Shown piece after piece: positions 17,369-58,251 of a stretch of DNA of 62,229 nucleotides. This stretch comes from Myxococcota bacterium (GTDB lineage Bacteria > Myxococcota > XYA12-FULL-58-9 > JABJBS01), in assembly GCA_036230545.1 (NCBI GenBank), contig JAZAIZ010000212.1, forward strand, positions 1 to 62,229, read 5' to 3'. The notes under the pieces were generated by a model that was given only the letters and a program-made list of their open reading frames with translations, did not search any database and was not told the origin of the DNA. The position numbers were made by a program, and so were the translations under genes. Within the stretch, counting starts at the first letter, position 1, and each line of letters begins with the position of its first letter.

Positions 17369-17376
17369 CGAAACGC

Positions 17377-17652: not shown

Positions 17653-17752
17653 AACCGTCTCCTTCTGAGGCCCCGCCTCCGGGTAATGGAGCAGGGGAGC
17701 GCCTCTCCCTTAGCACAGGCTCCCCTCCTTTGACGAGAGCCTCCGTGCCCCC

Positions 17753-17989: not shown

Positions 17990-18020
17990 GGCTCCCTCCT
18001 CCTTCATCCTGGGCGCGGGC

Positions 18021-18584: not shown

Positions 18585-18612
18585 GGTCGCTCCCGTCCCC
18601 CAGGCGCCTCTC

Positions 18613-18996: not shown

Positions 18997-19064
18997 ACAC
19001 TGCTCCCTGGTTCTGGATGCTGATTAATTCAGTTCACACATAGTCCACCTCGACTTTTTTCGCT

Positions 19065-19772: not shown

Positions 19773-19825
19773 GAATCCCCCCTCGGACATCTGGAAATAC
19801 CCGCCTGGATCTGGTATCGGCCGCC

Positions 19826-20263: not shown

Positions 20264-20363
20264 GCCCGCTTAAGGAGAGAGGGAGAACCCGGCCGAACAA
20301 GAGCCTTCAGCTTGCTTAACCAAAGGGTTTTGGCGTAATAAAAGCCCGATAGGATGTAAACCC

Positions 20364-20774: not shown

Positions 20775-20811
20775 GCCAGGGTCCCGCTCCCCTTATACCT
20801 CCTCTACCGGA

Positions 20812-21315: not shown

Positions 21316-21402
21316 AGGCGCCTCATTAACCAGCCAAACTCATCGAGTCAATGTGCCCCGCCCCTCGTTGCGAAAGCCCCCAATTCCCGTTAAGAATGCC
21401 CC

Positions 21403-21780
21403 ATGACACCCGAAGAGACTGAAGCGCGGCTCGTGGACAAATTAGGCATCCACGAGACCAAACGCCACATCCTGCTCTGCAGTGACCAGACCAAGCCCAA
21501 ATGCTGCGACAAAGAAGCCTCTCTGGAGTCGTGGAACTATCTGAAAAAGCGATTAAAAGAGCTGCAGCTCTCCGAGAAGGGGGGGATCTATCGCACCAAG
21601 GCCAACTGCCTGCGAATCTGCCAGGACGGCCCCATCGCGGTGGTCTATCCCGAAGGTGCCTGGTACCGAAAATGCACTCCCGACGTGCTCGAAGAGATTA
21701 TTCAAGGTCATTTAATTGGCGGAGAGGTCCTCTCCCGTCACCTCATCGCCGAGCACCCGCTGCCCGGGACCGATGGCTAA
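21403..21780 (+). CDS. Thioredoxin-like [2Fe-2S] ferredoxin family protein
   Basis: [14 protein letters not shown] ... ANCLRIC ... [13 protein letters not shown] resembles the TRX-like ferredoxin / sucrase-ferredoxin pattern. Convergent with the last suf-operon gene, with a 4-nt overlap. Confidence 0.6.
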
Positions 21781-22148
21781 TGTGTGGGGTATTGCTTCAT
21801 AGCATGCCCATCGCCGTGGAGACTCTGACACGCTTCGCAAGGACACAGCTCCCTTAGCACCTCCCAGGAATAGATCCCGGTGGCGTGATCATCACTGAAG
21901 CGAATGGAGACGGCATAATTGCCGACGGGCTCGATGGTTTGAATCCCGATATCATCCGGAGACTCGATAAAGGTCCAATCCCCAAGGTCATGCCCCTGAC
22001 ACTCCGCGCAGGGACAAAACCCTCGCAGATAGCGCAATGAAAAAGAACTCTGATGTTCATCACTCCACTGCACTGAGAGCTCCTGCTGCGCGCTCTTTAG
22101 CTCGATCTCAGTGGGAGCCGGTGCCAAATCAGATGGCTTACTCTGCAT
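21777..22148 (-). CDS. DUF971 (gamma-butyrobetaine-hydroxylase-like N-terminal domain) protein, last gene of the suf operon
   Basis: [27 protein letters not shown] ... [22 protein letters not shown] matches the DUF971 pattern. ATG 22148 is preceded by GAGGTAAG. Confidence 0.7.
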
Positions 22149-22189
22149 ACTTCTTACCTCGATTCCTGATAAAATTCTGTGTTCGTCTC

Positions 22190-22759
22190 TTACATCATCC
22201 CGGTCGCGAGGCGCGCGGCCTCGGACATCAGGGCTGGACTCCATGGGGGGTCAAAAACCAGCTCCACCGCCGCCTCTTCCACACTCGCCAGCTTCTCCAC
22301 CTTGCGCTTAACGTCATCAGCGATCACCTGCCCCATCCCACAACCAGGGGCGGTGAGGGTCATGGTGATATCCACGCGTTTGCCACCCGACTCCGTGGGC
22401 GTGAGCTTCATCGTGTAAATAAGCCCGAGCTCCACGATGTTTACGGGAATCTCGGGGTCATAGCACATCCGCAGCTGGCCCCAGATGACCTCATCGGTCA
22501 CCTCACCGCCAGCTTCGTTCAAGAGCTGCAGCCCCTCCTGTCGCGGGGGCTCTCTGCCGAGGCTCTTCGCATACTCGCCGTCGATGCGAAACATGCGACC
22601 ACCAAGACCCCGAACGGTAAAATCTCCACCGAGTTCCTGGAGAATCACCACCTCAAGCCCTTCCTCCAGCACGGTCTCCGTCCCTTCCGGCACCTGCACC
22701 GCGGGGGTGTCCTTCGACAACATCACGCGCTCTTTATTGAGACTTAATAATCCAGCCAT
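22190..22759 (-). CDS. sufT: Fe-S cluster assembly protein SufT (DUF59/MIP18 family)
   Basis: C-terminal DUF59 core: VIWGQLRMCYDPEIPVNIVELGLIY ... TLTAPGCGMG. About 185 aa, as for SufT. Located in the suf operon. Confidence 0.75.
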   Translation of the reverse strand: MAGLLSLNKERVMLSKDTPAVQVPEGTETVLEEGLEVVILQELGGDFTVRGLGGRMFRIDGEYAKSLGREPPRQEGLQLLNEAGGEVTDEVIWGQLRMCYDPEIPVNIVELGLIYTMKLTPTESGGKRVDITMTLTAPGCGMGQVIADDVKRKVEKLASVEEAAVELVFDPPWSPALMSEAARLATGMM

Positions 22760-22764
22760 CTCGA

Positions 22765-23220
22765 TTACTCCGTTGAAACCGACGCAGAAAACTCGTCACT
22801 TGTGACACCCGTCTTCACTGTATGCCAACTCAGCGTGGCGCACTTGACCCGAGCCGGAAACTCCCGCACCCCCGAAAACACCGCCAGCTTGCCGAGGGAG
22901 TCGGTGTCGAGCTCTTCGGCGAGGTCTGCGGTGACCAAATGATGAAATTGGTCAAAGAGCTCCAGCACTTCTCCCTGGGTCTTCCCCTTAACGGTCGTGG
23001 TCATCAGCGACGCGGAGGCCTTTGAGATCGCACAGCCCGTCCCCGTGAAGGAGATCTCCTCAACCCGCTCTCCGTCCATCTTGAGAAAAATCGTAAAGTG
23101 ATCCCCACACAAGGGGTTGTACCCTTCAATCCGACGGGTAGCGCCCTCCAGCTCACCAAAGTTTCGCGGCTTCGAATTGTGGTCAAGAATCACCGTCTGA
23201 TAGAGCTCTCTTATATTCAT
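22765..23220 (-). CDS. sufU: SUF-system NifU/IscU-like scaffold or sulfur acceptor (SufU type)
   Basis: LYQTVILDHNSKPRNFG, NPLCGD, GTGCAIS and KCATLSW are conserved SufU/IscU Cys motifs. Overlaps the sufS stop by 4 nt. Confidence 0.85.
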   Translation of the reverse strand: MNIRELYQTVILDHNSKPRNFGELEGATRRIEGYNPLCGDHFTIFLKMDGERVEEISFTGTGCAISKASASLMTTTVKGKTQGEVLELFDQFHHLVTADLAEELDTDSLGKLAVFSGVREFPARVKCATLSWHTVKTGVTSDEFSASVSTE

Positions 23221-31685: not shown

Positions 31686-35322
<3,637 letters not shown>

Positions 35323-35333
<11 letters not shown>

Positions 35334-40922: not shown

Positions 40923-42260
40923 TCAGAGCTTCGAGATATAAAGAATCCCCAGGCACATCTCATCCTGGGTTCCGTCCCCCCAGGCTACATTCCGGGGCTC
41001 CACAGCCTGCCCATCAATCCGGTGCTGATTCTCCGCGCTGTTGTCCCAAGTGCAGCTCATATGCAGTTTATCCCCGGGGTTGAACACCACAGGCTCCCGA
41101 AATCCGTAGGCTCTTTGCCAATTGAAGTCCCAGCGCGGAATGTCCAAAAGGCAGGTCTCAGCGCCCTCGGACTCCACCCAAAGCCTGGTCTGCACCCCCA
41201 GCTCGTGCATGTGCAGGGATGCCCAATGAATGCGGAAGGACTCCCCTGGTCCAAAGAGACCTCCAGTCAAAGCGCCCAGGTAAAATCCCGGATTGGCAGC
41301 GTAGCTATGAGTAACAGACTTCTGTCCGGCCGGGATCAGCATGTTTTCCCCCACAAACCACTGAAAGTTGAGCCACAGCAGGATGGACGCTGGGTGCTCC
41401 ACCTCCGAATCCAGCCTCAATTCAATGGAGGTCTTATCGGGCTGAGGGGCGTTGTCGAGAACGTTATAGTGAACCTGGAGAACAATCCGAGCCCCCTTCT
41501 GAAGCTGAATCCCAGTGCCTTCGGGAAAATCTGCTCCCTCTCCCCCGGGCGCCCAGGCCCCCAACCACTGAAACGCCCCCCGAGATCCGGGCCCGCCAAA
41601 GCACTGGTACCCATCGCCCTCATCCGCCGCATCCTTCTCCTCAATGGTGCCCACTTGGTCTGGAGCAACTAGAAACGCGATCACGTGATGAACGATGCCT
41701 GGGTTTCCGGGCAACGCTCGAAATCCGGTCACATACCCCTCATTCTCACCGGCCTCCCAGTCCAAAAGAAAGCAGCGGTAGTCATCGGGGGAGTCGACGG
41801 GAGTGTAAGCATTCTTCATCGACAAGGTCACATCAGAACGACTCAATTTCACCTCGGTGGCCGGGTTATGAACGGGAGCTCCCTCCTCAAGAGGATCGCC
41901 CTCCGGCCCCCCTTGGTCTACCCAATCGGTCAGGGTTTTCTTCTCGGCTGCGGTGAGCGCACCGCTTCCCGTGTAATCGTTGCAGGCCTCATCCCCCAAC
42001 CACGGTGGCATCGTCCCTCGCTTGACCTCCACCGCGATCGCTTCACGCAACGCATACGCGTCGTCATAAGAAGCGAAAGTGAATGGCGCGACGCCACCGG
42101 TAACGTGACAAGTGTTGCACTTCGAATCCAGAATCGGTTTGGCGTGCTGGTAATAATACACCGCCTCAACAGACTCGGTGTCCGAGTCACATCCCACACT
42201 CAAAACCACCAACAGAGTCAGGAGCAGCGCTCCCCCTAAGGTTTTTCTTATACTATTCAT
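40923..42260 (-). CDS. Lipoprotein with an N-terminal CxxCH segment and a copper type-II ascorbate-dependent monooxygenase (PHM/DBH)-like two-domain core
   Basis: Lipobox LSVGC. CNTCH at 42105-42119. GIVHHVIAF, QVHYN, LHMHELG and DEMCLGILY match the HH..H / HxH..M copper-ligand pattern of PHM/DBH. The ORF-track start at 42263 is GTG; an ATG follows at 42260. Confidence 0.6.
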   Translation of the reverse strand: MNSIRKTLGGALLLTLLVVLSVGCDSDTESVEAVYYYQHAKPILDSKCNTCHVTGGVAPFTFASYDDAYALREAIAVEVKRGTMPPWLGDEACNDYTGSGALTAAEKKTLTDWVDQGGPEGDPLEEGAPVHNPATEVKLSRSDVTLSMKNAYTPVDSPDDYRCFLLDWEAGENEGYVTGFRALPGNPGIVHHVIAFLVAPDQVGTIEEKDAADEGDGYQCFGGPGSRGAFQWLGAWAPGGEGADFPEGTGIQLQKGARIVLQVHYNVLDNAPQPDKTSIELRLDSEVEHPASILLWLNFQWFVGENMLIPAGQKSVTHSYAANPGFYLGALTGGLFGPGESFRIHWASLHMHELGVQTRLWVESEGAETCLLDIPRWDFNWQRAYGFREPVVFNPGDKLHMSCTWDNSAENQHRIDGQAVEPRNVAWGDGTQDEMCLGILYISKL

Positions 42261-42455
42261 CACGGCACCCCTTCGCTATTACAAGAAGAATCACAGGTAC
42301 CATCGCTCTCAGCCACTCGTTAGTCAACGGGCTTTTCATGCTTCTCTTTTCACATCTCTCTCCGCGTAGAAACAAATTCACGTTCTCATGCACCCGCGAA
42401 ATATAAAGCCACAGACGACCGGTACTTAAACCTTGTGCCGCAATCCTCAAGGCCT

Positions 42456-47411: not shown

Positions 47412-47984
47412 ATGCGAATTATTGCCGGACAGTGGGGAGGGCGCCGACTGAGCGCCCCCAAAGGAAAGATCACTCGCCCAACCCCAGACAGGGTTCGGGA
47501 GTCGCTCTTCTCAATCCTCGGTGACCGGGTGGAGGGCGCCAGGGTGCTGGACCTCTTCGCCGGCACGGGTTGCCTTGGGTTGGAGTGCCTCTCCCGGGGG
47601 GCCGCTCACGGAGTCTTTGTGGAGAAAGACCGGCGAGTCTTCAACCTCCTAAGCGAAAACCTTCAAATCGCCCCCCCGGAGCGCTACCAAAGCCTGAACT
47701 CCCCCGCTCAGAGAGCGCTCCGCCACCTGCAAAAACTAGAGTCCACCTTTGATATCGTCTTTTTGGACCCTCCCTATCACCTCGGACTTCTCCAACCGAC
47801 GTTTACGACCCTCCTCGAATCGGGTATGGTGGAAGCAGAAGGGACAGTGGTGTGCGAGCACTACTCCAAGGATGAGCCCCCAACTCCCAGCGAGCCATGG
47901 TCACTCATTCGTACACGACAATTTGGAGAGGTAAGTATCAGCCTGTTTCAGGTCCCCTCGTCACAGGAAAAGGAAGCACCATGA
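47412..47984 (+). CDS. rsmD: 16S rRNA (guanine966-N2)-methyltransferase RsmD
   Basis: [54 protein letters not shown]. Confidence 0.85.
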
Positions 47985-48475
47985 CCGTCGCACTCTATCC
48001 AGGCTCCTTTGACCCCATCACCAACGGGCACATCAACATCATCCAGCGGGGTCTCAAGATCTTCGACAAGCTTGTCGTCGCGGTGGCCATAAACGTCCGC
48101 AAGACTCCTCTCTTCCCGGCGGAAGAGCGCATGCAGATGATTCGAGACGCGGTGGGCTCCGACCGGGTGGAGGTAGACTGCTTTGAAGGGCTGCTGATCG
48201 ATTACGCCAAGAAGCGCCAGGCCAACGTCATCCTTCGGGGCTTACGTGCCCTCTCGGACTTTGAGTTTGAATTTCAGTTGGCCCACATGAATCGACGCCT
48301 CGGCGCTGATATCTCGCCAGGCCTGGACACCGTCTTTATGATGACCGGCGAGGAGCATTTTTATGTCTCCAGCAGCCTGGTCCGTGAGATCGCGTCCTTT
48401 GGCGGAAACGTCACAGACTTTGTCCCTCCCGGGGTAGAGGCTGGGCTCAAGAAAAAGTTTTCAGAGGATTCCTAA
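47981..48475 (+). CDS. coaD: Pantetheine-phosphate adenylyltransferase
   Basis: [50 protein letters not shown]-like motif. ATGA overlap with the rsmD stop. Confidence 0.95.
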
Positions 48476-49200: not shown

Positions 49201-52200
49201 TTAAAATGAAGCGCTGGTTGCCGAAGCCTCATTTAATGGAAGCAGCACCCTGGCGATAACCCGGTCGTCCTCCATCTCCACCTCAATGGTAGGCTCTCCG
49301 GCGCAACGCCTGATGGCCTCCTCCCGGGCCTCACCGCGCTGAGTGACGCTCCATCGCCCCGCCTCCTCGGTGACCTCCAGCTCCCGAAAATCGATCCGGG
49401 CCCCAATGCCCAGGCCCTTAAGGTAAGCTTCTTTAATCGCCCAGAAGGCGGTCAGCAGCGCGTCCTTGTTGGAGGCCCTCCGGACCTGATCCAGCTCGGC
49501 CTCGCTAAAATAATCCCGCTCAAAGGACGTGTCCCGTGACTCAATCTGCTCGACGTCAATCCCCGGACGCTGGTTCTTCTCCAGCGACTGAAACGCCATC
49601 GCCACCCCCGCGCTGTGGGAGATGGAGACCCGAAGGGGCTCGGAGGCCTCCCCCGCGACCCTCACCTGGGGCGCCCCAAGGTCGTCTGGCAAAATGGTGA
49701 TCGCCCCATAGGGAACAATCGCGCCCTCCCGCGCGAAGCGCTCCTCTCGAATCAAGCGCTTAGCCACTATCCGGCCCGCCAACCACTCGAGACGACGTTT
49801 GGGGGTCTTGAGCCCCTCAAAACGTGGAATCTCCTTCTCGGAGAGATAACGCCGAAGAGTCCCCGACGGATCGGCCTCAAGCATCCCCTCCACTTCCGAG
49901 AGCTCCAAGGCGCTCCATGGGGCCCCGTCCCCGGAGCCGCGGGCCGGCTCAAAGCGATCCTCGGGGGGGAGCCTGTGAAGCGTCTCAGTACGATAGCCCA
50001 GCATTTGGTCGAAGCAGCGGCCATCCTCATCGCAGGTCCAGATATCAAAAACAGCGTCAGCGCCGCCGCCCTCCCTCAATCGCACCAGAGTCCGAAGCCC
50101 CCCCTCAGGCGCAGGCTCCGGGCTCAGTAGAATTCGGTCAACCCCCGCCGGCAGGGCCATCCTGCCAAGCTCAGCCATCTCCCATAATCCAGCGGCCTGA
50201 AAACCCACCTCTCGAAGAAAGGGAGATGTCTCAAACTCCCCGTGCCCGTGCTCCCCCAGCCAGGGGGAGCGGCGCTCCACCGGAGACACCTCGACGCCGT
50301 CTTCACCCAACACCGAAACCGCATCCAGCACCTGAAACACCGGACCGTCAAAATCGCGACGGTAGATGTCCTCCCGCGAGATTTGAGGATCCCGAGGCAG
50401 CTCCAGCCCTCGAGCCACGGGGGACTCCAGGGGCACACGTGCACCACCGCACGCCTCGGCGAAGAAGTGCTCCCGACGAAGGCGTTTCCCACTCGGTTTG
50501 GTGAAATAAGAGACGAGGACCGTCTCAAAACGAGAATCCTCCAAGCGCTTCACCTCCACTGAGATCTCCAGTGGTCGATCTTCAAACAACTTAACCGGGA
50601 GCGCGAAACGCACCTCCCGCAGCTCCGCGATGGGCTCTCCTGCAAAATGCGACGCCGCCCCGGCCATCAACTCCACCCCCAACACCCCCGGAAACACCGG
50701 GGTCCCCTCGAGACGATGGTGGTCGAGCCCCAAATCCTGGGCAGGATCAAGCCGGCGAAAATAACACGCCCCCTCACCCTGGCGTTCCCAAGCGTCAAAC
50801 AACCATGGCAGCGGCTCTCCTTCCTGATAAAGGCGTGGAGCCTCCTGCTCGGGGGCCGCAAAATGCCCGAGGGCCCCCGCCACCACCACGTCTCCGGAAC
50901 ACCCCGACGCCGCCAGGGACGCCCCCAGCGCGGCCCCTGTGGCAGCAGGAAGAAGATCTACCCCGGTAGATTCCAACACCTGCTGCACAGAGCCTCGAGT
51001 GGCCATCCCTACGTCTCCCCACGCAGTCCAATTGAGGTTAAGAATGTTGCGTTTCTCAGATCGAGACAAAGCCCCCATCAACTCCTTGGCAGCGGCGTAA
51101 TCGACCTGAGCGCCGTTGCCAAAGCGACCAGCCACCGAACCCATGGTCACCATGCGCTCGGGCCTGAGAGCAAACCATAGCGTCAGCGCCGCGCTCGCCT
51201 TGGGAGCAAACACCCGTTGAAACGCCACCATATCCTTGTCGTGAAGAAACTTCGACTCCTCAAGCCCCGCACCGTGGAGCAGCAGCGCTACACTCCCGAA
51301 GCGCCCGCTGATCTCCCCGGCCACTGCGGACAAAGCCTCCTGGTCGACCACATCACAGGGGAAAACCTCCACCTCGCAACCAAGGCTCCGAAGCGTCGCG
51401 ATGTTTTCGGCCACCTCCAGTCGACGCTCCTCCTTTTCGACCCACTCCCTGAGGGCCACGGGAGTGACCCGGCCCTCGGAGTCGCTCAAGGCCTCCCGCG
51501 CAATCTCCTTGCGCTGCGCCGCGTCTTTACCATGAATGGGGCTCTCCGCAGGAGTAACCCCGAGGGTTCGGGCAACCAGCGCCACACGCAAAGGTCCCTG
51601 GCTGGCGATGTGCTTTAAGAGCTCAAAGGTGACTCCCCGCGTACCACCGGTGACCACCACCGCGGCGCCGGGATCAAGGGTCCACTCTGGCTCCTCCACC
51701 ACAGCGACCCGTTGCAACGCCACGCGCGCTCCCTTCCACCAGGCCAACTCCACCGGTCCCTCCGAAAGCCACTCGCTGAGCGCGAGAGCTGCAGACTGCC
51801 GTGGTTCGTCGCTGATGTCATCGAGGTCAAAGGCACGACAATGAGCCCCCTCCCACTCTTTCGCCAGACTCTTGGCGATCCCACCGAGGGCCCCAAGGGT
51901 CACACCGCTCACGCCCTCCTCCCCAAAGCCGAACGCGCCCGGGCTGCTCCCGGCCAGCAGAAGTCCCGCTCCCCGCATCTCTCCCCGCACCCTTACAAAG
52001 GCCCGGGCCAGCTCAAAGGTCCGCTCAACGTGCCCACGAATCGAGTCGGGGGTGTCCGTCTGCGCGACGTTCACCAAAGAAACCAGATCATCAGGAGCTC
52101 GCTCCCCGAGATGCTGCATAAACGCCTCAAGTGCCTCTCCACTCAGAGCATCGTCCACTTCGACCACCCTCGCCTCCCGAGCGCTCAACTCCTCCCTGAA

Positions 52201-55200
52201 CGCAGCGCGAAGCGCCAAATCCCCTCCAGCCAGAAGAACCAGGCGTCCCTGCAGCGAGCGACGCTCGCCGGCGGAGGGCTCCGCGTACACGGTCCCCACC
52301 CGCTGCACAGTGAAGCGGCTCCCAACCTCCGGAAACCCACCCGGCGACGCCACGGGGTTAAGAGAGGTATCGCTGCTCAACGGCGCAGGGTTCGCCCCCT
52401 CCGCAGCAAACGAAGCGTTGGCGAGCACATAATCCGCCAAGGCGTTGAGGCTTTGCACATCTGCCAGCTTAAAGTTCTCCGTCTGGGGCAGACCAAAACG
52501 CTCTCGAATGACCGCCAGAATCTCAGCCTGTTTAACAGTGTCGATGCCCAGATCTTCTTCCAAGCCATAATCCGGCTCCAGCTCTTCCACATCGTAGCCG
52601 GTCTGCTCAGCGAAGAGCAGTTGAAGCTCGGTGATAAGACCGGAGCGCTCAGGAACCACACCCCCCTCCCCATTCACTTCGTCTGGGTCCTCCTGCCCTA
52701 ACGCAGGGGCCTCACCTGAAATGGTTGCGGGAGTGCCCCCGGTCTGACTCACAACATAGTCCACCACCGCGTTCAGGGTCTGCACCTCGGAGAGTTTAAA
52801 GTCCTCGTCGGAGGCCATCCCATAGCGGGTGCGCAGGAGCGAGAAGATCTCCGCCTGCTTGACGGTGTCAATGCCGAGGTCTGCCTCCAGTTCATAGCCA
52901 GGATCCAACTCCTCCGGTTCATAGCCGGTCTGCTCCGCGAAGAGATTCACCACCTCCTTGAGGAGATCCGCCCGTGAAGGCAGGTTTCCCTCCTCCTCCA
53001 TCGGGGCGGGCGCGGGCACATCGTGATCAATAAAGCTGGCCACATAGTCTGCCACCGCGCGGATCGTCTGTACCTCCGAGAGTTTGAACGACTCGTCGGT
53101 AGGCATTCCGTAGCGCTCCCGCAGCAGGGAGAAGATCTCCGCCTGCTTGACGGTGTCCACGCCAAGGTCTGCCTCCAATTGATAATCCGGCTCCAGCTCT
53201 TCAGGCTCGTAACCAGTCTGCTCCGCGAAGAGACGTTGAATCTCCTCCATCAGGTTCGCTCCCATCCCACTTGGAGCCTGCGCAACGACGGTGTGAGGCT
53301 CAGAGGCCGCCACCAGCGCCTCGGCTCGCTCGATGAGAGGACCTGCGCTAAGGGATAGGGAAGGCACACTCAATTCACTCACCCGCGCGCCCCCCTTCTC
53401 GGCGACCCGCAGGGTTCGTTTAACGATCTCAAGGCCGGCATCCTCCCGACCACATAAGCTATCTAACCAGGCGTGATAGCGCTCTGCCGACTGGAGGCGG
53501 GCCTCCTCCACCGCACGACGCCGATAGGCCACCATTGCAATCTGCGAACCAAAGCCAGCCGCGAATCGAATCGCGATTTCACGATCGATGGGGCTACCAT
53601 CCGCAAAGAGCAGATCTGCAAAGGCAGGGTCGACCTCCCTTAGATTCGCCACGGCCGGCAGCACCTGTCGCTGCAATCCCTTGAGAGACACCACATCTTC
53701 GAGGGTCGCTCCCATGGGGTGGCCGGTGTATCCTTTGGTGTTGGCGATCAGCACCCGAGCCCCGTGCTCGCCAAAAGCATTTTGAATGGCCTCCATCTCC
53801 GCTTGAGAGCTGCCACCCCGAGCCGGGGTGTAGGTTTCATGGGACATGAAAAAGCTTTTGTCGGCCAGGGTTCCAAGATCGTAGCCGGTTTTAACCTGCA
53901 CCTCTTCAACAAACTCGCTAAACACCTCCGAGATGACCCCACCGTCGAGGCGGGTCCCATGAAACGCACTGTTGGAAAAATGGCTGGCGACCACGTCGGC
54001 AATCCCCTGCATGCCTCTCTCTTCAACCAACGCCTCTCTCTCCAGCACAAAGCCCGAAGCCCCGGCCCCGAGAATCATCCCGTTGCGTTTCGCGCCAAAG
54101 GGCACCGCAGCATCCTCGACCTCCGACTCCACCGTAGCGGCTCCGGTTGCGAGAAAGCCCGAACCAATCCAAGGCAGGGTTGTGGCGCTGGTAACATCAT
54201 CTGCGGTCACCACCACCACCCGGTCACAGCGCCCGAGCCTGATCCAATCTGCAGCAACACCGATAGCCTGCCCCCCGGAGGCACACGCGGCGTTCACCGC
54301 GGTGTTGGGTCCTTTCGCGCCGATGGTCTGAGCCAGCTGGGCGTGGCCCATGGACAGAACCCAAAACAAAAACTTTCGATTAAAGCGATACCGGTCTCCT
54401 TCTCGCTCCAGCTCGTCGATGGTCGGCTGAAAATGGTCCGTCAGCCTCTTCACCTCCTCCGGATCTCCCATCTCAAACGCAAGGGAAGTCACCAGCGTGC
54501 GCAGTTCCTCCGCGGTTCGCCCAGCGTGGCTTGAGGCGGCCTGTCGGGAGACGTCGTCAATGAGCCTGTCGATTCCAGGAAACGCGCTTGCGAAGATCAC
54601 CCCCGTGCGTTTCGCCAAAGGCTCGGGCAAAGCCCAGCGGTCGGGCAGCTGCCGGCCGGTGGAGGTCTTTCGATATTTCCGCACCAGGGGCAACCCGGCG
54701 TCCCGCAATGCGTCAACGCCCGCGGCGATGGCGAGACGACTCGCCGTATCGAGGGCATCCACAAAGCCGCTGTCGAGGCCGTAGTCTCCCACCAGATCGA
54801 TGTCCCCGAGCCGACCCGCCAATTGAATCACCTCACCAAGCTCCTGAAGCTTCTCAAACTCGCCGGTGGTCTTGTTCAAACGCAGGACGTTCTTGTGCAC
54901 GATCTCCTGCCGAGCATCGGCCTGAATCGGCTTGATGAAATTCTCGCCCGCAAGAATCGGCCCAAACGAATCTTCACTCAACTCCCCCACGGGGTTCACG
55001 GTTGGCAGCATCACCGACATTCCGCTGACGCTCAGGGTCTCCTCCGCCTGCGAAGGCGCCGGTGTTGACGTCGGGGCTGGGGACACAGCTTCGTCCCGCA
55101 GCACGGGAATCTCAGCGCTCCTGTCAAATTGCACCGGGAGCCCGGCGGCAGCGAGGGCAGCGAGAGCGTCCATCAGGCACTCGTTCCCGGTCTTTTTGTG

Positions 55201-58200
55201 ATGGTTCGTCGCGACTGCATAATGGGGCCGCTTGCCGAGGATATTCCGCACAAAACCCGTGATAGCGCGACGTGGTCCCACCTCCACAAAAGTCCTGACG
55301 CCCTCCTGATAGAGCCGCTCCACCTGCCCGATGAACTCCACCGGCGACTCCAACTGCCTGGCCAAAAGCGTCACCACTTCATCCACACTCTCGGGATAGG
55401 GCTTGGCGTCGACGTTGGACAGAATGGGACACGTGGGCACCCGAATGTCGAGCCCACCGAGAACACGCGCCAAAGGCTTCGCCGCGGGCGCCACGATCTC
55501 GCTGTGAAAAGCATGAGACACCGGAATATGCCGCGCGTCGATCTTGAACTCCCCAAACCTTTCAACGGCGCTATCCACTGCATCGCTCGCTCCGGCGATC
55601 ACCGTCTGGGAGCTGCAGTTCTTGTTTGCCGCGATCACATACCCCTCGACGGTCTGCAAGATCTCCTCCACCCGCTCAGAGTCTGCTGCGACGGTGGCCA
55701 TTTTTCCGTTGTCCTCCACCTTGACCCCGGCCATCTCCCGACCGCGGGCGCTCACCGCGTAGAGGGCATCCGCGAAGGTCAGCACCCCCGCCGCCACGCA
55801 GGCCGCATACTCTCCAAGAGAGTGCCCCACGACAAAATCGGGGCGCACACCAAAAGACTGCAGGAGCCGCATCATGGCCACATCCGCGGTCAACATCGCC
55901 GGCTGGCAAATCTCGGTCTGCTTCAATCGCTCCGCCGCCTCGGGAGAGTCTGGAGCCAGATCCGAGGGCCACACGGTTTCCGTCAGGGTGCCCTCGATCA
56001 GCGGCCTGAGGATATCATCCGCCTCCCGAAAAGTCTGCTCCACCACCGGATAAGTCCCGGCAAGATCTTGAAACATGTTGATGTATTGGGAGCCCTGGCC
56101 AGGAAAGAGGAAGGCCACCTTGGAGTCGGAAGGGGCCGCCTCATCGAGATAAATCCCTTGAGCGGTGAGCGCCCGTTGCCGGCGTCGCTCCGCATCGACA
56201 GCTTTGGTCTGTGCCTGCTTAAGATCTGCGGCTGCGAAAGCCAATCGTACGGGCGCTTTGATGGCCACGTCCCGCGTAGCCACCAGCTGACTTGAGAAGC
56301 CACTGGCATCATTCAAGGTCTGTTGCGCTGTCTTCAGCACCGCCTCCCGAGAGTCTGCGCCAAACACAAACACCGCGGGACTCTCCAGGGGCTCACCTGC
56401 GGCCTCCTCCGCATCGTCGGGTGCCCTCCGGGTTGCGGCCACGTAGTCCACCACGGCGTTGAGGGTCTGAACATCGGCCAGGCGAAAGCTCTCATCGCGG
56501 ACCATTCCGTAACGCTCGCGGAGCACTCCAAAAATCTCAGCCTGCTTCACCGTGTCGATGCCAAGGTCTTGCTCAAGCTCATAACCCGGATCAAGCTCCT
56601 CAAGGTCATAGCCGGTGGTGTCAGCGAAGAGTTGTGTAACCTCCTGCAGCAATTGATCGCGATTCATGTCAACTCCGTGGGAAGGGCCGCGACCGGGCGC
56701 GACGGGGGGAATAGATTGTGGAGAGGGAGCCACCGGAGCAGTTGGAGGAATGGACTCCTCCAAGAGAGGCCCCCTCCCACTCTCTTCGAGGACCACATGA
56801 AAATTGGTGCCCCCAAAGCCAAAGGCGCTGACTCCCGCGCGGCGAGGAAGGCCGGTCTCTTCCCAGGGACGAGCGGTCTGAATCACCGACAGAAACCCCT
56901 GGTGCAGGGGCGACTCCCTGGTGGGCGAGTGAACGTTGGCGCTGGGGGGAAGGGTCTTGTGATGCAGCGCAAGGGCAGTCTTGATGAGAGCCGCCGCGCC
57001 GGCCGCGCTCTTGAGGTGGCCGATCATGGACTTGACCGAGCCAATGGGTGTTTTGGCCGGCGCCACCCCCGACTCCTGAATATAGTCCGAGAGCACCTGC
57101 AGCTCGGTCCCGTCCCCAACCACGGTGGACGTGCCATGGGCTTCAAAGAGCCCCACAGACTCCACGGGCACCCCACAAGACTGGTAGGCCCGCTCAATGG
57201 CGGCGCGCTGTCCACGGGGATTGGGAGCGGTCATCCCCTTACCCCGTCCGTCGCTGGCGGTGCCGACACCCCGAATCACAGCATACACCCGGTCACCGTC
57301 CCGCAAGGCGTCGGGCAGGCGCTTGAGGATCAACACCCCCGCTCCTTCCCCCATCACAAAACCGTTGGCCCGAGCGTCAAAGGGGGCGCTGTGCTCCGCG
57401 GAGAGGGCACCAATCTTTGAAAACTTCGCGTAGGTAGGAGGATCCATAGACCGGTCCACTCCACCGCTGATGGCCAAATCGTACTCCCCAAGCCTCAATC
57501 CCTGCACCGCGGTGTTCACCGCCGCCAGAGAGGCCGCGCAGGCTGCATCGGTGGTGTAATTGGGGCCCCGCAGGTCAAAGGTGTTGGCGATGCGTCCGGT
57601 GATGCAGTTGGAGAGTTCCCCGGGCATGGAGTCTTCGGTGACCTTTGGCAGCCGGGACTTAAAACGCGCCTCGATGTCCTGCAAGAGTTCCTCTTTGCCC
57701 GTGTCGGGGAGATGCTTCAGGGCGCCACTCTTTTCGAGAGCGTCCACCATGGACGGGTACCAGACGCGCAGACTGGTCAAGTCTTCAAACTCGCCCCCCA
57801 TGGCGTTACCCATGATCACAGCGGTCCTCTCGCGGTCAAAGGCACGGCCCTCCACCCCACGCCCGGCGAAGACCTCGAGGCCGGCATCTTCAAGGGCGTC
57901 AGCCACCGCGGTCAGGGCGATCTTTTGAATGTCGTCCACGGACTCCAGGGTACGAGGCGGAATGCGGAAACGTTTTTTGTCGAAGCGAACTTCATCGATA
58001 AACCCACCGATTCGAGAGTAGGTTCGGTCCGGCGCGCTGCGATCCTCCGACCAATAGAGTCGAGGCTCCCACCGGGACTCGGGGACCTCTTTAATCGCCA
58101 CATGCCCGCGACAGATATTCTCCCAAAAAGACGGAACATCCCCCGCGTCGGGAAAGCATCCCCCCATCCCGATAATTGCAACCCCAACGTCTCGTTCAGC

Positions 58201-58251
58201 ATCGTATCGACTCGTCACGCTCTCACTCCAACCCATACGGTGAGCCGTCAT
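49201..58251 (-). CDS. Iterative type I polyketide / PUFA-synthase-like megasynthase, 3016 aa: KS-CP-AT-KS-CP-CP-CP-KR-DH-PPTase
   Basis: Single uninterrupted frame.
- KS1: DAACASSLAAV, HGTSTVVGD, GHLKSAAG.
- AT: FPGQGSQY, GHSLGEY, SHAFHS.
- KS2: NAACASGG, SHETYT, GHPMGA.
- Four carrier-like domains: DLG(I/V)DTVKQAEI.
- KR: VVTGGTRG, YAAAK.
- DH: HHRLEGTPVFP (HxxxGxxxxP).
- PPTase: GIDVEQI, FWAIKEAYLKGLG. Confidence 0.9.
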   Translation of the reverse strand: MTAHRMGWSESVTSRYDAERDVGVAIIGMGGCFPDAGDVPSFWENICRGHVAIKEVPESRWEPRLYWSEDRSAPDRTYSRIGGFIDEVRFDKKRFRIPPRTLESVDDIQKIALTAVADALEDAGLEVFAGRGVEGRAFDRERTAVIMGNAMGGEFEDLTSLRVWYPSMVDALEKSGALKHLPDTGKEELLQDIEARFKSRLPKVTEDSMPGELSNCITGRIANTFDLRGPNYTTDAACAASLAAVNTAVQGLRLGEYDLAISGGVDRSMDPPTYAKFSKIGALSAEHSAPFDARANGFVMGEGAGVLILKRLPDALRDGDRVYAVIRGVGTASDGRGKGMTAPNPRGQRAAIERAYQSCGVPVESVGLFEAHGTSTVVGDGTELQVLSDYIQESGVAPAKTPIGSVKSMIGHLKSAAGAAALIKTALALHHKTLPPSANVHSPTRESPLHQGFLSVIQTARPWEETGLPRRAGVSAFGFGGTNFHVVLEESGRGPLLEESIPPTAPVAPSPQSIPPVAPGRGPSHGVDMNRDQLLQEVTQLFADTTGYDLEELDPGYELEQDLGIDTVKQAEIFGVLRERYGMVRDESFRLADVQTLNAVVDYVAATRRAPDDAEEAAGEPLESPAVFVFGADSREAVLKTAQQTLNDASGFSSQLVATRDVAIKAPVRLAFAAADLKQAQTKAVDAERRRQRALTAQGIYLDEAAPSDSKVAFLFPGQGSQYINMFQDLAGTYPVVEQTFREADDILRPLIEGTLTETVWPSDLAPDSPEAAERLKQTEICQPAMLTADVAMMRLLQSFGVRPDFVVGHSLGEYAACVAAGVLTFADALYAVSARGREMAGVKVEDNGKMATVAADSERVEEILQTVEGYVIAANKNCSSQTVIAGASDAVDSAVERFGEFKIDARHIPVSHAFHSEIVAPAAKPLARVLGGLDIRVPTCPILSNVDAKPYPESVDEVVTLLARQLESPVEFIGQVERLYQEGVRTFVEVGPRRAITGFVRNILGKRPHYAVATNHHKKTGNECLMDALAALAAAGLPVQFDRSAEIPVLRDEAVSPAPTSTPAPSQAEETLSVSGMSVMLPTVNPVGELSEDSFGPILAGENFIKPIQADARQEIVHKNVLRLNKTTGEFEKLQELGEVIQLAGRLGDIDLVGDYGLDSGFVDALDTASRLAIAAGVDALRDAGLPLVRKYRKTSTGRQLPDRWALPEPLAKRTGVIFASAFPGIDRLIDDVSRQAASSHAGRTAEELRTLVTSLAFEMGDPEEVKRLTDHFQPTIDELEREGDRYRFNRKFLFWVLSMGHAQLAQTIGAKGPNTAVNAACASGGQAIGVAADWIRLGRCDRVVVVTADDVTSATTLPWIGSGFLATGAATVESEVEDAAVPFGAKRNGMILGAGASGFVLEREALVEERGMQGIADVVASHFSNSAFHGTRLDGGVISEVFSEFVEEVQVKTGYDLGTLADKSFFMSHETYTPARGGSSQAEMEAIQNAFGEHGARVLIANTKGYTGHPMGATLEDVVSLKGLQRQVLPAVANLREVDPAFADLLFADGSPIDREIAIRFAAGFGSQIAMVAYRRRAVEEARLQSAERYHAWLDSLCGREDAGLEIVKRTLRVAEKGGARVSELSVPSLSLSAGPLIERAEALVAASEPHTVVAQAPSGMGANLMEEIQRLFAEQTGYEPEELEPDYQLEADLGVDTVKQAEIFSLLRERYGMPTDESFKLSEVQTIRAVADYVASFIDHDVPAPAPMEEEGNLPSRADLLKEVVNLFAEQTGYEPEELDPGYELEADLGIDTVKQAEIFSLLRTRYGMASDEDFKLSEVQTLNAVVDYVVSQTGGTPATISGEAPALGQEDPDEVNGEGGVVPERSGLITELQLLFAEQTGYDVEELEPDYGLEEDLGIDTVKQAEILAVIRERFGLPQTENFKLADVQSLNALADYVLANASFAAEGANPAPLSSDTSLNPVASPGGFPEVGSRFTVQRVGTVYAEPSAGERRSLQGRLVLLAGGDLALRAAFREELSAREARVVEVDDALSGEALEAFMQHLGERAPDDLVSLVNVAQTDTPDSIRGHVERTFELARAFVRVRGEMRGAGLLLAGSSPGAFGFGEEGVSGVTLGALGGIAKSLAKEWEGAHCRAFDLDDISDEPRQSAALALSEWLSEGPVELAWWKGARVALQRVAVVEEPEWTLDPGAAVVVTGGTRGVTFELLKHIASQGPLRVALVARTLGVTPAESPIHGKDAAQRKEIAREALSDSEGRVTPVALREWVEKEERRLEVAENIATLRSLGCEVEVFPCDVVDQEALSAVAGEISGRFGSVALLLHGAGLEESKFLHDKDMVAFQRVFAPKASAALTLWFALRPERMVTMGSVAGRFGNGAQVDYAAAKELMGALSRSEKRNILNLNWTAWGDVGMATRGSVQQVLESTGVDLLPAATGAALGASLAASGCSGDVVVAGALGHFAAPEQEAPRLYQEGEPLPWLFDAWERQGEGACYFRRLDPAQDLGLDHHRLEGTPVFPGVLGVELMAGAASHFAGEPIAELREVRFALPVKLFEDRPLEISVEVKRLEDSRFETVLVSYFTKPSGKRLRREHFFAEACGGARVPLESPVARGLELPRDPQISREDIYRRDFDGPVFQVLDAVSVLGEDGVEVSPVERRSPWLGEHGHGEFETSPFLREVGFQAAGLWEMAELGRMALPAGVDRILLSPEPAPEGGLRTLVRLREGGGADAVFDIWTCDEDGRCFDQMLGYRTETLHRLPPEDRFEPARGSGDGAPWSALELSEVEGMLEADPSGTLRRYLSEKEIPRFEGLKTPKRRLEWLAGRIVAKRLIREERFAREGAIVPYGAITILPDDLGAPQVRVAGEASEPLRVSISHSAGVAMAFQSLEKNQRPGIDVEQIESRDTSFERDYFSEAELDQVRRASNKDALLTAFWAIKEAYLKGLGIGARIDFRELEVTEEAGRWSVTQRGEAREEAIRRCAGEPTIEVEMEDDRVIARVLLPLNEASATSASF
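49204..49890 (-). other. PKS domain: C-terminal 4'-phosphopantetheinyl transferase (approximate bounds)
   Basis: LAGRIVAKR, VSISHSAGVAMA, GIDVEQI and FWAIKEAYLKGLG match PPTase (Sfp/EntD superfamily) motifs. Confidence 0.7.
49960..50820 (-). other. PKS domain: PKS-type double-hotdog dehydratase (approximate bounds)
   Basis: LDHHRLEGTPVFPGVLGVELM (HxxxGxxxxP) followed by about 250 aa of hotdog-like sequence. Confidence 0.65.
50930..52330 (-). other. PKS domain: ketoreductase with N-terminal structural subdomain (approximate bounds)
   Basis: AVVVTGGTRGVTFEL Rossmann motif, ...HGAGL..., VDYAAAKE catalytic Tyr-xxx-Lys. Confidence 0.75.
52417..53260 (-). repeat. Tandem triplicated carrier-domain repeat (periods 288 and 327 nt) inside the PKS gene
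   Basis: Three consecutive copies of ...LFAEQTGY(E/D)xEEL(E/D)P(D/G)Y.LE.DLG(I/V)DTVKQAEI..., with long near-identical nucleotide stretches. Thr codons at 53152-53154, 52864-52866 and 52537-52539. Confidence 0.85.
53620..55035 (-). other. PKS domain: ketosynthase 2 (FabF-like, Cys-His-His retained; approximate bounds)
   Basis: LSVSGMSVMLP ... ALDTASRLAIAAGVDALRDAGL ... VNAACASGGQA ... MSHETYTP ... KGYTGHPMGA. Confidence 0.75.
55140..56120 (-). other. PKS domain: acyltransferase (malonyl-CoA:ACP transacylase type; approximate bounds)
   Basis: VAFLFPGQGSQY, VVGHSLGEYAA, PVSHAFHS. Confidence 0.8.
56431..56655 (-). other. PKS domain: carrier-protein-like domain 1, Thr567 at the canonical Ser position (approximate bounds)
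   Basis: LLQEVTQLFADTTGYDLEELDPGYELEQDLGIDTVKQAEIFGVLRERYGM. Thr codon ACG at 56551-56553. Confidence 0.7.
56783..58191 (-). other. PKS domain: ketosynthase 1 (approximate bounds)
   Basis: VAIIGMGGCFP ... DAACASSL ... HGTSTVVGD ... GHLKSAAG ... GFGGTNFHVVLEE. Confidence 0.8.

What the first reader, a model, noticed from the sequence alone, without database searches (positions are those of the whole stretch)
52417..53260. All four carrier domains of the megasynthase have Thr where the phosphopantetheinylated Ser is expected (DLG(I/V)DTVKQAEI)
Canonical ACP/PCP domains carry the prosthetic group on the Ser of the (L)G(x)DS(L/I) motif at the start of helix II.

In this protein the motif is GIDT, GVDT, GIDT and GIDT in the four copies:
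- Thr567: ACG, 56551-56553
- Thr1700: ACC, 53152-53154
- Thr1796: ACC, 52864-52866
- Thr1905: ACT, 52537-52539

Three different Thr codons are used. This rules out a sequencing artefact or a single recent mutation copied by gene conversion, and means the Thr is conserved at the protein level. No alternative Ser is conserved across the four copies in the neighbouring helix.

Possible explanations:
- the fused PPTase modifies Thr
- the domains are loaded by another chemistry
- they are non-carrier structural repeats

The three tandem copies also form a nucleotide-level repeat with periods of 288 and 327 nt.
Basis: partly seen in the sequence, partly recalled or inferred. Interest (0 to 1): 0.7.

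Follow-up and report, generated by a model that had tools for sequence, protein, structure and literature searches.

The report
Threonine-type carrier domains in a lipid megasynthase
All four carrier domains of a giant fatty-acid/polyketide-type synthase have threonine where every studied carrier protein has the cofactor-bearing serine; the same swap runs through a very large, uncharacterised family of bacterial and archaeal synthases that keep their own cofactor-attaching enzyme, so a cofactor link to threonine that I could not find described is likely.

Summary
ORF 49201-58251 (-), 3016 aa, reads KS-CP-AT-KS-CP-CP-CP-KR-DH-PPTase. All four carrier domains (CPs) read DLG(I/V)DTVKQAEI, with Thr at the stated codons.

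- **Position:** the Thr aligns with the phosphopantetheinylated Ser of solved ACPs and is the first residue of helix II in a pLDDT 95 model.
- **Family trait:** in 121 homologues the site is Thr in 468 CP domains and Ser in 10, and nothing else. The motif occurs in at least 572 stretches of species-representative genomes, bacterial and archaeal.
- **Nearest Ser relatives:** PUFA-synthase PfaA ACPs (LGIDSIKRVEIL).
- **Ser and Thr are interchangeable:** Ser variants are nested among Thr orthologues in the same synteny, and mixed Ser/Thr proteins exist.
- **Coupled PPTase:** an Sfp-type PPTase with intact catalytic motifs is fused or encoded in the locus, mostly directly downstream.
- **Context:** acetyl-CoA carboxylase genes are frequent neighbours.

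Best reading (about 0.62): the Thr is the phosphopantetheine attachment site, loaded by the dedicated PPTase, in an iterative lipid synthase resembling the uncharacterised "Type R/S secondary lipid synthases". The modification itself is inferred, not shown. E. coli ACP S36T is the standard non-modifiable mutant, and I found no paper describing Thr-type carriers.

The parts
49201..58251 (-). Megasynthase ORF, 3016 aa: KS1-CP1-AT-KS2-CP2-CP3-CP4-KR-DH-PPTase
   Evidence: ORF list and translation; Pfam domains; active-site motifs all present
56782..58182 (-). KS1 (residues 24-490); Cys in DAACA at 235, His in EAHGT at 370 and IGHLK at 410
   Evidence: Pfam ketoacyl-synt and Ketoacyl-synt_C; motifs
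56431..56655 (-). CP1 (residues 533-607), DLGIDTVKQAEI; Thr567 codon ACG at 56551-56553
55234..56112 (-). Malonyl-type acyltransferase (residues 714-1006); GHSLGE at 809, HAFHS at 913
   Evidence: Pfam Acyl_transf_1; NCBIfam fabD-like match; motifs
53467..54999 (-). KS2 (about residues 1085-1595, approximate bounds); keeps Cys (NAACASG at 1320) and both His (SHETYT at 1470, YTGHP at 1508)
   Evidence: second ketoacyl-synt stretch and Thiolase_N hit; motifs; weak self-match to KS1
53032..53256 (-). CP2 (residues 1666-1740), DLGVDTVKQAEI; Thr1700 codon ACC at 53152-53154
52744..52968 (-). CP3 (residues 1762-1836), DLGIDTVKQAEI; Thr1796 codon ACC at 52864-52866
52417..52638 (-). CP4 (residues 1872-1945), DLGIDTVKQAEI; Thr1905 codon ACT at 52537-52539
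51016..51663 (-). Ketoreductase (residues 2197-2412); TGGTRG at 2201, DYAAAK at 2384
   Evidence: Pfam KR and adh_short; motifs
49963..50778 (-). PKS-type dehydratase (residues 2492-2763); HRLEGTPVFP at 2512
   Evidence: Pfam PKS_DH_N and PS-DH; motif
49204..49881 (-). C-terminal Sfp-type PPTase (residues 2791-3016); SISHS at 2876, GIDVE at 2897, WAIKEAYLK at 2937
   Evidence: Pfam ACPS and 4PPT_N; family conservation; AF2 pLDDT 92.7; Foldseek best hits 2cg5 and 4mrt; hhalign to Sfp maps H90, D107/E109, K150/E151

Best explanation
The ORF is an iterative type I fatty-acid/polyketide-like lipid synthase of the PUFA-synthase (PfaA) lineage.

Its four carrier domains belong to a large, old subfamily of PfaA-type ACP domains. 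In this subfamily the phosphopantetheine-acceptor Ser has been replaced by Thr: DLGIDTVKQAEI instead of DLGIDSIKRVEIL.

**Proposed mechanism:**
1. The C-terminal Sfp-type PPTase domain transfers 4'-phosphopantetheine from CoA onto the Thr hydroxyl at the N-terminus of helix II. In other family members this PPTase is a separate gene in the locus, mostly directly downstream.
2. The holo carriers then shuttle malonyl and acyl thioesters between AT, the two KS domains, KR and DH in the usual way.

**Shown:**
- ACP fold and the position of the Thr
- family-wide Thr with occasional Ser
- intact catalytic motifs in every domain
- tight PPTase linkage
- frequent acetyl-CoA carboxylase neighbours

**Inferred:**
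- that the Thr is actually modified
- that this PPTase clade accepts Thr, and also Ser
- that Thr is selected for, perhaps for insulation from housekeeping PPTases or hydrolases, or for a more stable phosphodiester
For: 1. **Position.** The Thr aligns with the modified Ser of solved ACPs. It is the first residue of helix II in a pLDDT 95 model that superposes on holo-ACPs.
2. **Only hydroxyl residues occur at the site.** Counts are 468 Thr and 10 Ser in 121 homologues spanning 34-89% identity. Across 79 genomic loci there are 246 Thr, using all four ACN codons, and 3 Ser. The flanking LEADLGID-VKQAE is almost invariant.
3. **Ser and Thr are interchangeable in orthologues.**
   - The all-Ser proteins P0025 and P0027 are nested among Thr proteins and are not each other's nearest relatives.
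   - P0027 has the same bactofilin / megasynthase / carboxyltransferase synteny as the Thr-type P0007.
   - P0107 (CP1 Ser) is 85.5% identical to P0111 (CP1 Thr).
   - Mixed Ser/Thr proteins exist.
4. **Steric coupling with the next residue.** Ser goes with Ile at +1 and Thr with Val. Overall counts are 182 S-I, 859 T-V and 13 of each off-diagonal. Within the KQAE clade, 5 of 13 Ser domains have Ile against 8 of 769 Thr domains.
5. **A PPTase is retained.**
   - It is fused in 118 of 121 homologues.
   - It is fused or encoded in the locus, mostly directly downstream, in 48 of 60 assessable loci.
   - Its catalytic motifs are conserved family-wide and map onto Sfp H90, D107/E109 and K150/E151.
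   - Its fold matches AASDHPPT and Sfp.
6. **A working carrier is required.** All KS, AT, KR and DH active-site motifs are intact. No other carrier protein is encoded in the 62-kb window.
7. **Lineage.** The nearest Ser-type relatives in a 1.84-billion-protein profile search are tandem PfaA-type ACPs, LGIDSIKRVEIL.
Against: - There is no biochemical evidence here for phosphopantetheine on Thr.
- The best-studied case argues the other way. [quoted passage not shown] A Thr-competent PPTase therefore has to be assumed.
- I found no PPTase residue that tracks Ser versus Thr acceptors. Only two all-Ser proteins were available, so power is very low.
- Twelve of 60 loci showed no PPTase within about 10 kb. 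My simple ORF calling may have missed some.
- The window protein has no enoyl reductase domain and no adjacent carboxylase, so its product is unknown.
Confidence: 0.62

Rival explanations
1. **Thr is modified but has no special meaning.** The linked PPTase accepts Ser and Thr equally. Thr was fixed once in an ancestor and is simply inherited, so there is no new specificity or adaptive reason.
For: - Mixed Ser/Thr proteins have a single fused PPTase.
- There are repeated Thr-to-Ser switches without any obvious PPTase change.
- All-Ser orthologues sit in the same synteny as Thr orthologues.
Against: - Ser is one nucleotide away from Thr (ACN to TCN, or ACY to AGY). Even so, Thr is kept in about 98% of domains across bacteria and archaea, with all four codons in use. 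This points to purifying selection for Thr itself.
- The Thr-Val versus Ser-Ile coupling at +1 implies a tuned pocket.
- Canonical AcpS does not accept Thr.
Confidence: 0.17
2. **Pseudo-carriers.** The Thr domains are never phosphopantetheinylated and act as structural or docking repeats. Chain elongation uses a free-standing Ser-type ACP encoded elsewhere, and the PPTase serves that ACP.
For: - S36T inactivates E. coli ACP.
- Most of the genome was not available to search for a trans ACP.
Against: - A non-functional site would drift. Here only Thr or Ser occurs in about 480 domains.
- Helix II recognition residues are nearly invariant.
- The tandem multiplicity mirrors PfaA ACPs.
- The PPTase is fused to or encoded next to proteins whose only PP-binding domains are Thr-type.
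- No ACP gene was found in the window, and none appears among the conserved neighbours.
Confidence: 0.1
3. **A different group, site or chemistry.**
- Another residue carries the arm, for example the conserved Thr of TGY (T1679) or of Q-T-L (T1729).
- Or the Thr carries some other prosthetic group.
- Or it is acylated directly as an oxoester.
For: Two further Thr columns are about 90% conserved. Nothing here measures the modification.
Against: - One of those other Thr residues (the TGY threonine) also appears in a family member whose motif is otherwise PfaA-like (EKTGYP...DMEADLGID-). That both are shared with Ser-type PfaA ACPs is from my own knowledge and was not checked in the Ser-type hits. 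If so, they are structural.
- The linked enzyme is a bona fide PPTase with CoA- and Mg-binding motifs.
- KS, AT, KR and DH chemistry needs a long thiol arm (established FAS/PKS enzymology).
Confidence: 0.05

Closest known systems
Tandem ACP domains of PUFA synthase PfaA, with their PPTase PfaE
   Same: - Same ACP subfamily: (E)KTGY...LEADLGID-x-K..E helix II, and tandem repeats with Ala/Pro-rich linkers.
- The PfaA model is the best NCBIfam hit.
- PfaA-type proteins are the nearest Ser-type hits in the profile search.
- A dedicated PPTase accompanies the synthase.
   Different: - PfaA ACPs read LGIDSIKRVEIL, with Ser then Ile. Here the motif is LGIDTVKQAEI, with Thr then Val.
- The protein scores below the PfaA family cut-off (851.7 against 1010.1).
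- The architecture differs: an extra CP sits between KS1 and AT, a second Cys-bearing KS is in the same chain, DH and PPTase are fused, and there are no PfaB, PfaC or PfaD partners nearby.
'Type R' and 'Type S' secondary lipid synthase clusters of Shulse and Allen 2011 (PMC3098273)
   Same: - Type R is described as a single pfaA homologue, KS-MAT-CLF-ACP(3-6)-KR, followed by a PPTase gene, sometimes with an acetyl-CoA carboxylase subunit.
- It is reported in Acidobacteria, Elusimicrobium and Roseiflexus, with unknown product.
- Thr-type relatives found here occur in those same phyla, with the same PPTase and carboxylase neighbours.
- Type S (Desulfobacterium) was suggested to be a core fatty acid synthase.
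   Different: - The paper never mentions threonine.
- I could not fetch the named strains' proteins, so identity with Type R is inferred.
- The window protein adds CP1, DH and a fused PPTase.
- Its 'CLF' position retains the catalytic Cys.
E. coli ACP S36T
   Same: The same Ser-to-Thr change at the same structural position, the N-terminus of helix II.
   Different: In E. coli it is the standard non-modifiable, non-functional control (PMC3340395). Here Thr is the conserved natural state in a family with intact catalytic domains and a dedicated PPTase.
Megasynthases with a built-in PPTase: fungal FAS alpha subunit and enediyne PKSE (the PKSE comparison is from my own knowledge)
   Same: A C-terminal PPTase domain in the same polypeptide as its carrier. 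The PPTase halves match the fungal FAS PPT domain structurally. PKSE also ends in KR-DH-PPTase.
   Different: Those systems use Ser carriers. The fungal PPT is a single AcpS-like unit that oligomerises, whereas here the PPTase is an Sfp-type pseudodimer. PKSE has one KS and one ACP.

Membership tests
Acyl/peptidyl carrier protein domain (Pfam PF00550 PP-binding) | Four-helix ACP fold recognised by the family profile | tested here: met
   PF00550 scores 86.8 bits against a cut-off of 20.8, in four stretches. AF2 pLDDT is 95.4. TM is 0.83-0.87 to solved ACPs.
Acyl/peptidyl carrier protein domain (Pfam PF00550 PP-binding) | Ser in the (L)GxDS motif as the phosphopantetheine attachment site | tested here: not met
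   Thr occupies that column in all four copies and in 468 of 478 family domains.
Acyl/peptidyl carrier protein domain (Pfam PF00550 PP-binding) | Covalently bound 4'-phosphopantetheine | not testable with these tools
   Needs mass spectrometry or labelling.
PUFA synthase PfaA (NCBIfam TIGR02813) | Score above the curated family cut-off | tested here: not met
   851.7 bits against a cut-off of 1010.1. It is the best-scoring model, but below threshold.
PUFA synthase PfaA (NCBIfam TIGR02813) | Partner genes pfaB, pfaC, pfaD in the cluster | tested here: not met
   The neighbours are housekeeping genes: AlgH-like, RsmD, CoaD, DsbA-like, PntAB, thioredoxin, FtsW/RodA.
Sfp-type (group II) phosphopantetheinyl transferase | Two-half pseudodimer fold with the motifs (S)H, GxDxE and WxxKE(A/S)xxK | tested here: met
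   Pfam ACPS 54 bits against 25. Motifs at 2876, 2897 and 2937 are conserved family-wide. hhalign to Sfp gives 98% probability. Foldseek best hits are 2cg5 and 4mrt.
Type R secondary lipid synthase cluster (Shulse and Allen 2011) | pfaA homologue KS-MAT-CLF-ACP(3-6)-KR plus a downstream PPTase, sometimes with an ACC subunit | tested here: inconclusive
   Relatives in Elusimicrobiota, Acidobacteriota and Chloroflexia fit this description. The window protein has additional CP1 and DH domains and a fused PPTase. The named type strains could not be retrieved.
Enediyne PKSE | Single KS-AT-ACP-KR-DH-PPTase chain with one KS and one ACP (own knowledge) | tested here: not met
   The window protein has two KS and four CP domains.

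The most novel reading that the evidence does not exclude
O-(4'-phosphopantetheinyl)threonine is a natural, widespread modification. On this reading:
- Thousands of lipid megasynthases in bacteria and archaea use Thr-linked carriers. The archaea include Thermoplasmatota and Asgard-labelled MAGs.
- The carriers are loaded by a co-evolved PPTase clade.
- Together they form a natural carrier/PPTase pair insulated from housekeeping AcpS and Sfp enzymes.
- The pair powers an acetyl-CoA-carboxylase-coupled type I fatty acid synthase that has so far escaped characterisation.
Probability: 0.45. Interest if true: 0.85.

Novelty: new variant of a known kind. Interest (0 to 1): 0.75.

Why it matters
**It challenges a textbook rule.** Carrier-protein biochemistry treats the DS serine as invariant, and Ser-to-Thr is used as the standard 'dead' mutant.

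**If the Thr is modified:**
- A large natural family that keeps Thr would add a new acceptor residue to phosphopantetheinylation.
- It would define a PPTase clade with altered acceptor specificity. Such a clade could serve as an orthogonal protein-labelling or pathway-insulation tool.
- Motif-based annotation that demands Ser would be shown to mis-score these domains.

**The host enzymes are interesting in themselves.**
- They are single-gene lipid synthases coupled to acetyl-CoA carboxylase. They occur in predatory Bradymonadia, Myxococcota, sulfate reducers, Elusimicrobia, Acidobacteria and archaeal MAGs.
- Their products are unknown.
- In archaea they bear on the question of fatty-acid synthesis capacity.

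**It is directly testable.** Cultured carriers exist:
- Persicimonas caeni, WP_141196199.1
- Bradymonas sediminis, WP_111334198.1
- Desulfobacter vibrioformis DSM 8776

Tried and rejected
- **Tandem repeat.** Tandem Repeats Finder on 52000-53600 found no array. The 'nucleotide repeat' is only 64-73% identical domain copies, so it is not a feature in its own right.
- **Sequencing artefact or gene conversion.** Rejected on three grounds: three different codons, 42-54% third-position identity, and family-wide conservation.
- **Alternative conserved Ser.** None found.
- **Other carrier gene in the window.** None found with the CP HMM or with E. coli AcpP as query.
- **PPTase residues that distinguish all-Ser from Thr proteins.** Nothing convincing. 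One weak lead: E2904, three residues after the catalytic Glu, is Ala in both all-Ser proteins, but also in 13 other family PPTase sequences (nearly all from Thr-type proteins).
- **Literature.** None returned a description of Thr-type carrier domains. Three attempts to open the 2014 PPTase review failed because it is not held.
- **Source of the window.** The exact window protein is not on record in the contig collection.
- **Synteny.** The bactofilin-megasynthase-carboxyltransferase synteny of relatives was not found in the window itself. Upstream there is a thioredoxin, then FtsW/RodA.
Full report
**1. The observation**

The region lies inside one ORF, 49201..58251 on the minus strand, encoding 3016 aa. 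Pfam gives the order KS (24-490), PP-binding, AT (714-1006), a second KS, three PP-binding domains, KR (2197-2412), PKS-type DH (2492-2763) and a C-terminal ACPS-family PPTase. PP-binding is matched in four stretches.

The four G(I/V)DT motifs and their Thr codons are exactly where the finding puts them:
- T567, ACG, 56551-56553
- T1700, ACC, 53152-53154
- T1796, ACC, 52864-52866
- T1905, ACT, 52537-52539

The copies share 58-74% amino-acid identity and 64-73% nucleotide identity, but only 42-54% at third codon positions. They are old duplicates, not recently homogenised. The 288 and 327 nt spacings are right, but Tandem Repeats Finder reports no array. The 'nucleotide repeat' is simply a diverged domain repeat.

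**2. The Thr is at the attachment position**

- phmmer of CP2 against all PDB chains aligns DLGVD-T-VKQAEI column for column with DLGAD-S-LD.VEL of bacterial ACPs and with both PigH ACPs.
- An AlphaFold2 model built on a 40-sequence CP alignment (A1) has pLDDT 95.4, and helix II starts exactly at the Thr.
- The model superposes on E. coli, H. pylori and other ACPs with TM 0.83-0.87 and rmsd 1.6-1.8 A.
- No conserved Ser exists elsewhere in the domain. The most Ser-rich columns reach 34% and 32% and alternate with Ala or Gly.
- No other carrier protein is encoded anywhere in the 62-kb window.

**3. It is a family trait, not a local oddity**

A whole-protein homology search returned thousands of relatives. 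The 120 listed are about 2800-3900 aa, nearly all with a PPTase domain. They come from Myxococcota, Bradymonadia, Thermoplasmatota and other lineages.

*Counts at the attachment column*
- An HMM survey of these 120 proteins plus the query found 479 CP domains: Thr in 468, Ser in 10, one gapped, and nothing else.
- The flank LEADLGID-VKQAE is almost invariant.

*Taxonomic spread*
- Hits come from Myxococcota, Bdellovibrionales-labelled MAGs, Persicimonas, Desulfobacter vibrioformis DSM 8776, Desulfotignum, Elusimicrobiota, Spirochaetota, Acidobacteriota, Chloroflexia, Acidimicrobiia and Solirubrobacterales.
- Archaeal hits come from MAGs labelled Thermoplasmatota, Heimdallarchaeota and Promethearchaeota.

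*Codon usage*
- In those loci the Thr uses all four ACN codons: 114 ACG, 104 ACC, 17 ACA, 11 ACT. There are 3 Ser.
- This locus set was selected on the motif, so the unbiased figure is the one.

*Nearest Ser-type relatives*
- A word-indexed profile search gave 1664 hits at E up to 1e-5. Its top 120 were all Thr-type, and many look like fragments of longer genes.
- A full HMMER pass over 1.84 billion cluster representatives gave 7118 proteins at E up to 0.001, 3786 at 1e-10 and 1120 at 1e-30.
- Of the 138 newly retrieved top hits from that pass, 103 are all-Thr, 32 all-Ser and 3 mixed.
- The all-Ser ones are mostly canonical PfaA-type tandem ACPs reading LGIDSIKRVEIL.
- The Thr carriers are therefore a sister or sub-lineage of PUFA-synthase ACPs. 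Intermediate motifs exist, such as LGIDSIKQVEIL, LGIDTVKQVEIF and LGIDSIKQAEIL.

**4. Ser and Thr behave as functional equivalents at this site**

- P0025 and P0027 have Ser in all four CPs. Their nearest relatives are Thr-type proteins rather than each other.
- P0027 sits in the same bactofilin / megasynthase / carboxyltransferase synteny as the Thr-type P0007.
- P0107 (CP1 Ser) is 85.5% identical to P0111 (CP1 Thr).
- Several proteins combine one Ser CP with Thr CPs and have a single fused PPTase.

A position that tolerates only the two hydroxyl amino acids, and swaps between them in orthologues, is what one expects of a nucleophile. It is not what one expects of a decayed site.

There is also a steric signature:
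- Ser is followed by Ile and Thr by Val. Counts are 182 S-I, 859 T-V and 13 of each off-diagonal.
- Within the KQAE-type clade, Ser domains have Ile at +1 in 5 of 13 cases, against 8 of 769 for Thr domains.
- These counts are per domain and are not phylogenetically independent, since only about five lineages contribute. The direction still fits a jointly packed pocket: one methyl moves from the +1 residue to the acceptor.

**5. The PPTase**

- A PPTase domain is present in 118 of 121 homologues.
- Among 60 genomic loci whose 3' side could be judged, it is fused in 28 and a separate ORF in the locus in 20, mostly directly downstream. It was also one of the two most frequent conserved neighbours.
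- Family-wide invariant or near-invariant residues include the SH histidine, GxDxE and WxxKEAxxK.
- hhalign against Sfp gives 98% probability. The alignment maps SISHS, GIDVE and WAIKEAYLK onto Sfp H90, D107/E109 and W147/K150/E151/K155.
- The AlphaFold2 model (pLDDT 92.7) is an Sfp-type pseudodimer. Its best matches are human AASDHPPT (2cg5) and Sfp-CoA-PCP (4mrt).
- I found no PPTase residue that tracks the acceptor type, but only two all-Ser proteins were available.

**6. What the machine is**

*Catalytic motifs*
- All catalytic motifs are intact in the window protein: KS1 Cys-His-His, AT GHSLGE and HAFH, KS2 Cys-His-His, KR, DH HxxxGxxxxP.
- KS2 keeps its Cys in most of the members scored.

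*Family classification*
- The best NCBIfam model is PfaA, but below its cut-off: 851.7 against 1010.1.

*Genomic context*
- The window itself is a housekeeping region. It holds SMC, Suf, MoaA, PntAB, RsmD-CoaD, AlgH-like, thioredoxin and FtsW/RodA, with no pfaBCD.
- In relatives the commonest neighbour is an acyl-CoA carboxylase carboxyltransferase, in 21 loci on the same strand.
- A Thermoplasmatota MAG has carboxyltransferase, BioY, biotin carboxylase and BCCP flanking the gene.
- Persicimonas caeni has BCCP and carboxyltransferase directly downstream.

*Enoyl reduction in relatives*
- Some members fuse a PfaD/NMO-type enoyl reductase. Examples are the PF03060 hits and the Desulfobacter vibrioformis protein, whose N-terminus I read as a PfaD/NMO-type enoyl reductase (from the sequence; Pfam was not run on it), followed by KS-KS-AT-KS-4xCP(Thr)-KR-DH plus a separate PPTase.
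- Others have an upstream gene that looks like an acyl-CoA dehydrogenase (judged from its sequence; not profile-tested) (13 loci).

*Match to published clusters*
- This picture matches the uncharacterised 'Type R' cluster of Shulse and Allen 2011. That cluster is KS-MAT-CLF-ACP(3-6)-KR plus a downstream PPTase, with an ACC subunit in Koribacter, and occurs in Acidobacteria, Elusimicrobium and Roseiflexus.
- It also resembles their 'Type S' cluster from Desulfobacterium, which they suggested might be a core fatty acid synthase.
- The paper does not mention threonine.
- I could not retrieve the named strains' proteins, so this link is by architecture, taxa and neighbours only.

**7. Mechanism proposed**

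CoA plus the Thr hydroxyl, at the N-terminus of helix II, gives O-phosphopantetheinyl-Thr. The reaction would be catalysed in cis, or by the PPTase gene encoded in the locus, using the usual Mg/Glu chemistry. The holo carriers then serve AT, KS1, KS2, KR and DH.

*Shown:* position, fold, conservation, Ser/Thr exchange, PPTase linkage and integrity, intact partner domains, malonyl-CoA supply genes.

*Inferred:* the modification itself, the Thr competence of the PPTase, and the reason for Thr.

*Possible reasons for Thr (speculative):*
- insulation from housekeeping AcpS or AcpH
- greater resistance of a Thr phosphodiester to beta-elimination

*Main counter-evidence:* E. coli ACP S36T is not modified and is not functional (PMC3340395).

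**8. Novelty**

None of the full-text searches, nor the two incidental papers I checked, described Thr-type carriers. Curated annotation calls these proteins only 'SDR family oxidoreductase' or 'type I polyketide synthase'. The library lacks most subscription journals, so prior description cannot be excluded.

I rate it a new variant of a known kind: carrier-domain and PPTase chemistry with a different acceptor residue. It is of high interest because it contradicts a textbook invariant, is very widespread, and can be tested with one mass-spectrometry experiment.

Noticed in passing
window 47412-48475 (+): An RsmD-like methyltransferase and a cytidylyltransferase-like gene (Pfam CTP_transf_like), which I read as CoaD (phosphopantetheine adenylyltransferase) from the conserved RsmD-CoaD pairing, lie about 700 bp beyond the 3' end of the megasynthase, on the opposite strand. 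CoaD makes the precursor of CoA, which is the phosphopantetheine donor. This is probably just the common RsmD-CoaD housekeeping pair.
   Followed up: partly
L081 (Thermoplasmatota MAG JBMYRW010000001), 8301-23063: An archaeal MAG has the Thr-type megasynthase flanked by carboxyltransferase, BioY, biotin carboxylase, BCCP and an enoyl-CoA hydratase. That is an apparently complete malonyl-CoA supply next to a type I synthase, which is relevant to fatty-acid synthesis capacity in archaea. MAGs labelled Heimdall- and Promethearchaeota also carry the motif (L029, L038).
   Followed up: partly
family-wide; window residues 1700-1701 and equivalents: The acceptor residue and the next residue covary: Ser-Ile in PfaA-type ACPs against Thr-Val in this family. 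Ser revertants inside the Thr clade often regain Ile (5 of 13, against 8 of 769).
   Followed up: yes
upstream of the megasynthase in 13 related loci (e.g. L042 3413-5077): A conserved, roughly 554-aa gene that looks like an acyl-CoA dehydrogenase (from its sequence; not profile-tested) sits on the same strand just upstream. It is a candidate stand-in for the enoyl reductase that many members lack. A roughly 200-aa ORF of unknown function (I did not scan it against any family library) lies downstream in 6 loci.
   Followed up: no
window 53467-54999 (-) and family: The second KS, described as a 'CLF' for Type R clusters in the literature, keeps the catalytic Cys (AACAS) and both His residues in the window protein. 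Most of the family members that could be scored also keep the Cys (AACAS).
   Followed up: partly
window residue E2904 (about 49540-49542): Three residues after the catalytic Glu of GIDVE, most family PPTases have Glu, while both all-Ser proteins have Ala. Thirteen other family PPTase sequences (nearly all from Thr-type proteins) also have Ala. From memory, this position corresponds to the carrier-contacting K112 region of Sfp.
   Followed up: partly
window 40923-42263 (-): A 446-aa ORF matches both halves of copper type II ascorbate-dependent monooxygenase (PHM/DBH-like). That family is better known from animals.
   Followed up: no
window 31686-35333 (+): A 1215-aa ORF combines an N-terminal DUF255/thioredoxin-like domain with an aldo/keto reductase domain.
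   Followed up: no
window 13958-17368 (+): A 1136-aa ORF has only a weak, partial match to phosphoenolpyruvate carboxylase (77.8 bits).
   Followed up: no
P0018: A 3291-aa family member is deposited as a hypothetical protein of Acer saccharum (sugar maple). This is most likely bacterial contamination of a plant assembly.
   Followed up: no
whole window: GC skew is negative in every 4-kb bin (-0.07 to -0.18). The window therefore seems to lie entirely on one replichore, with C enriched on the + strand.
   Followed up: no
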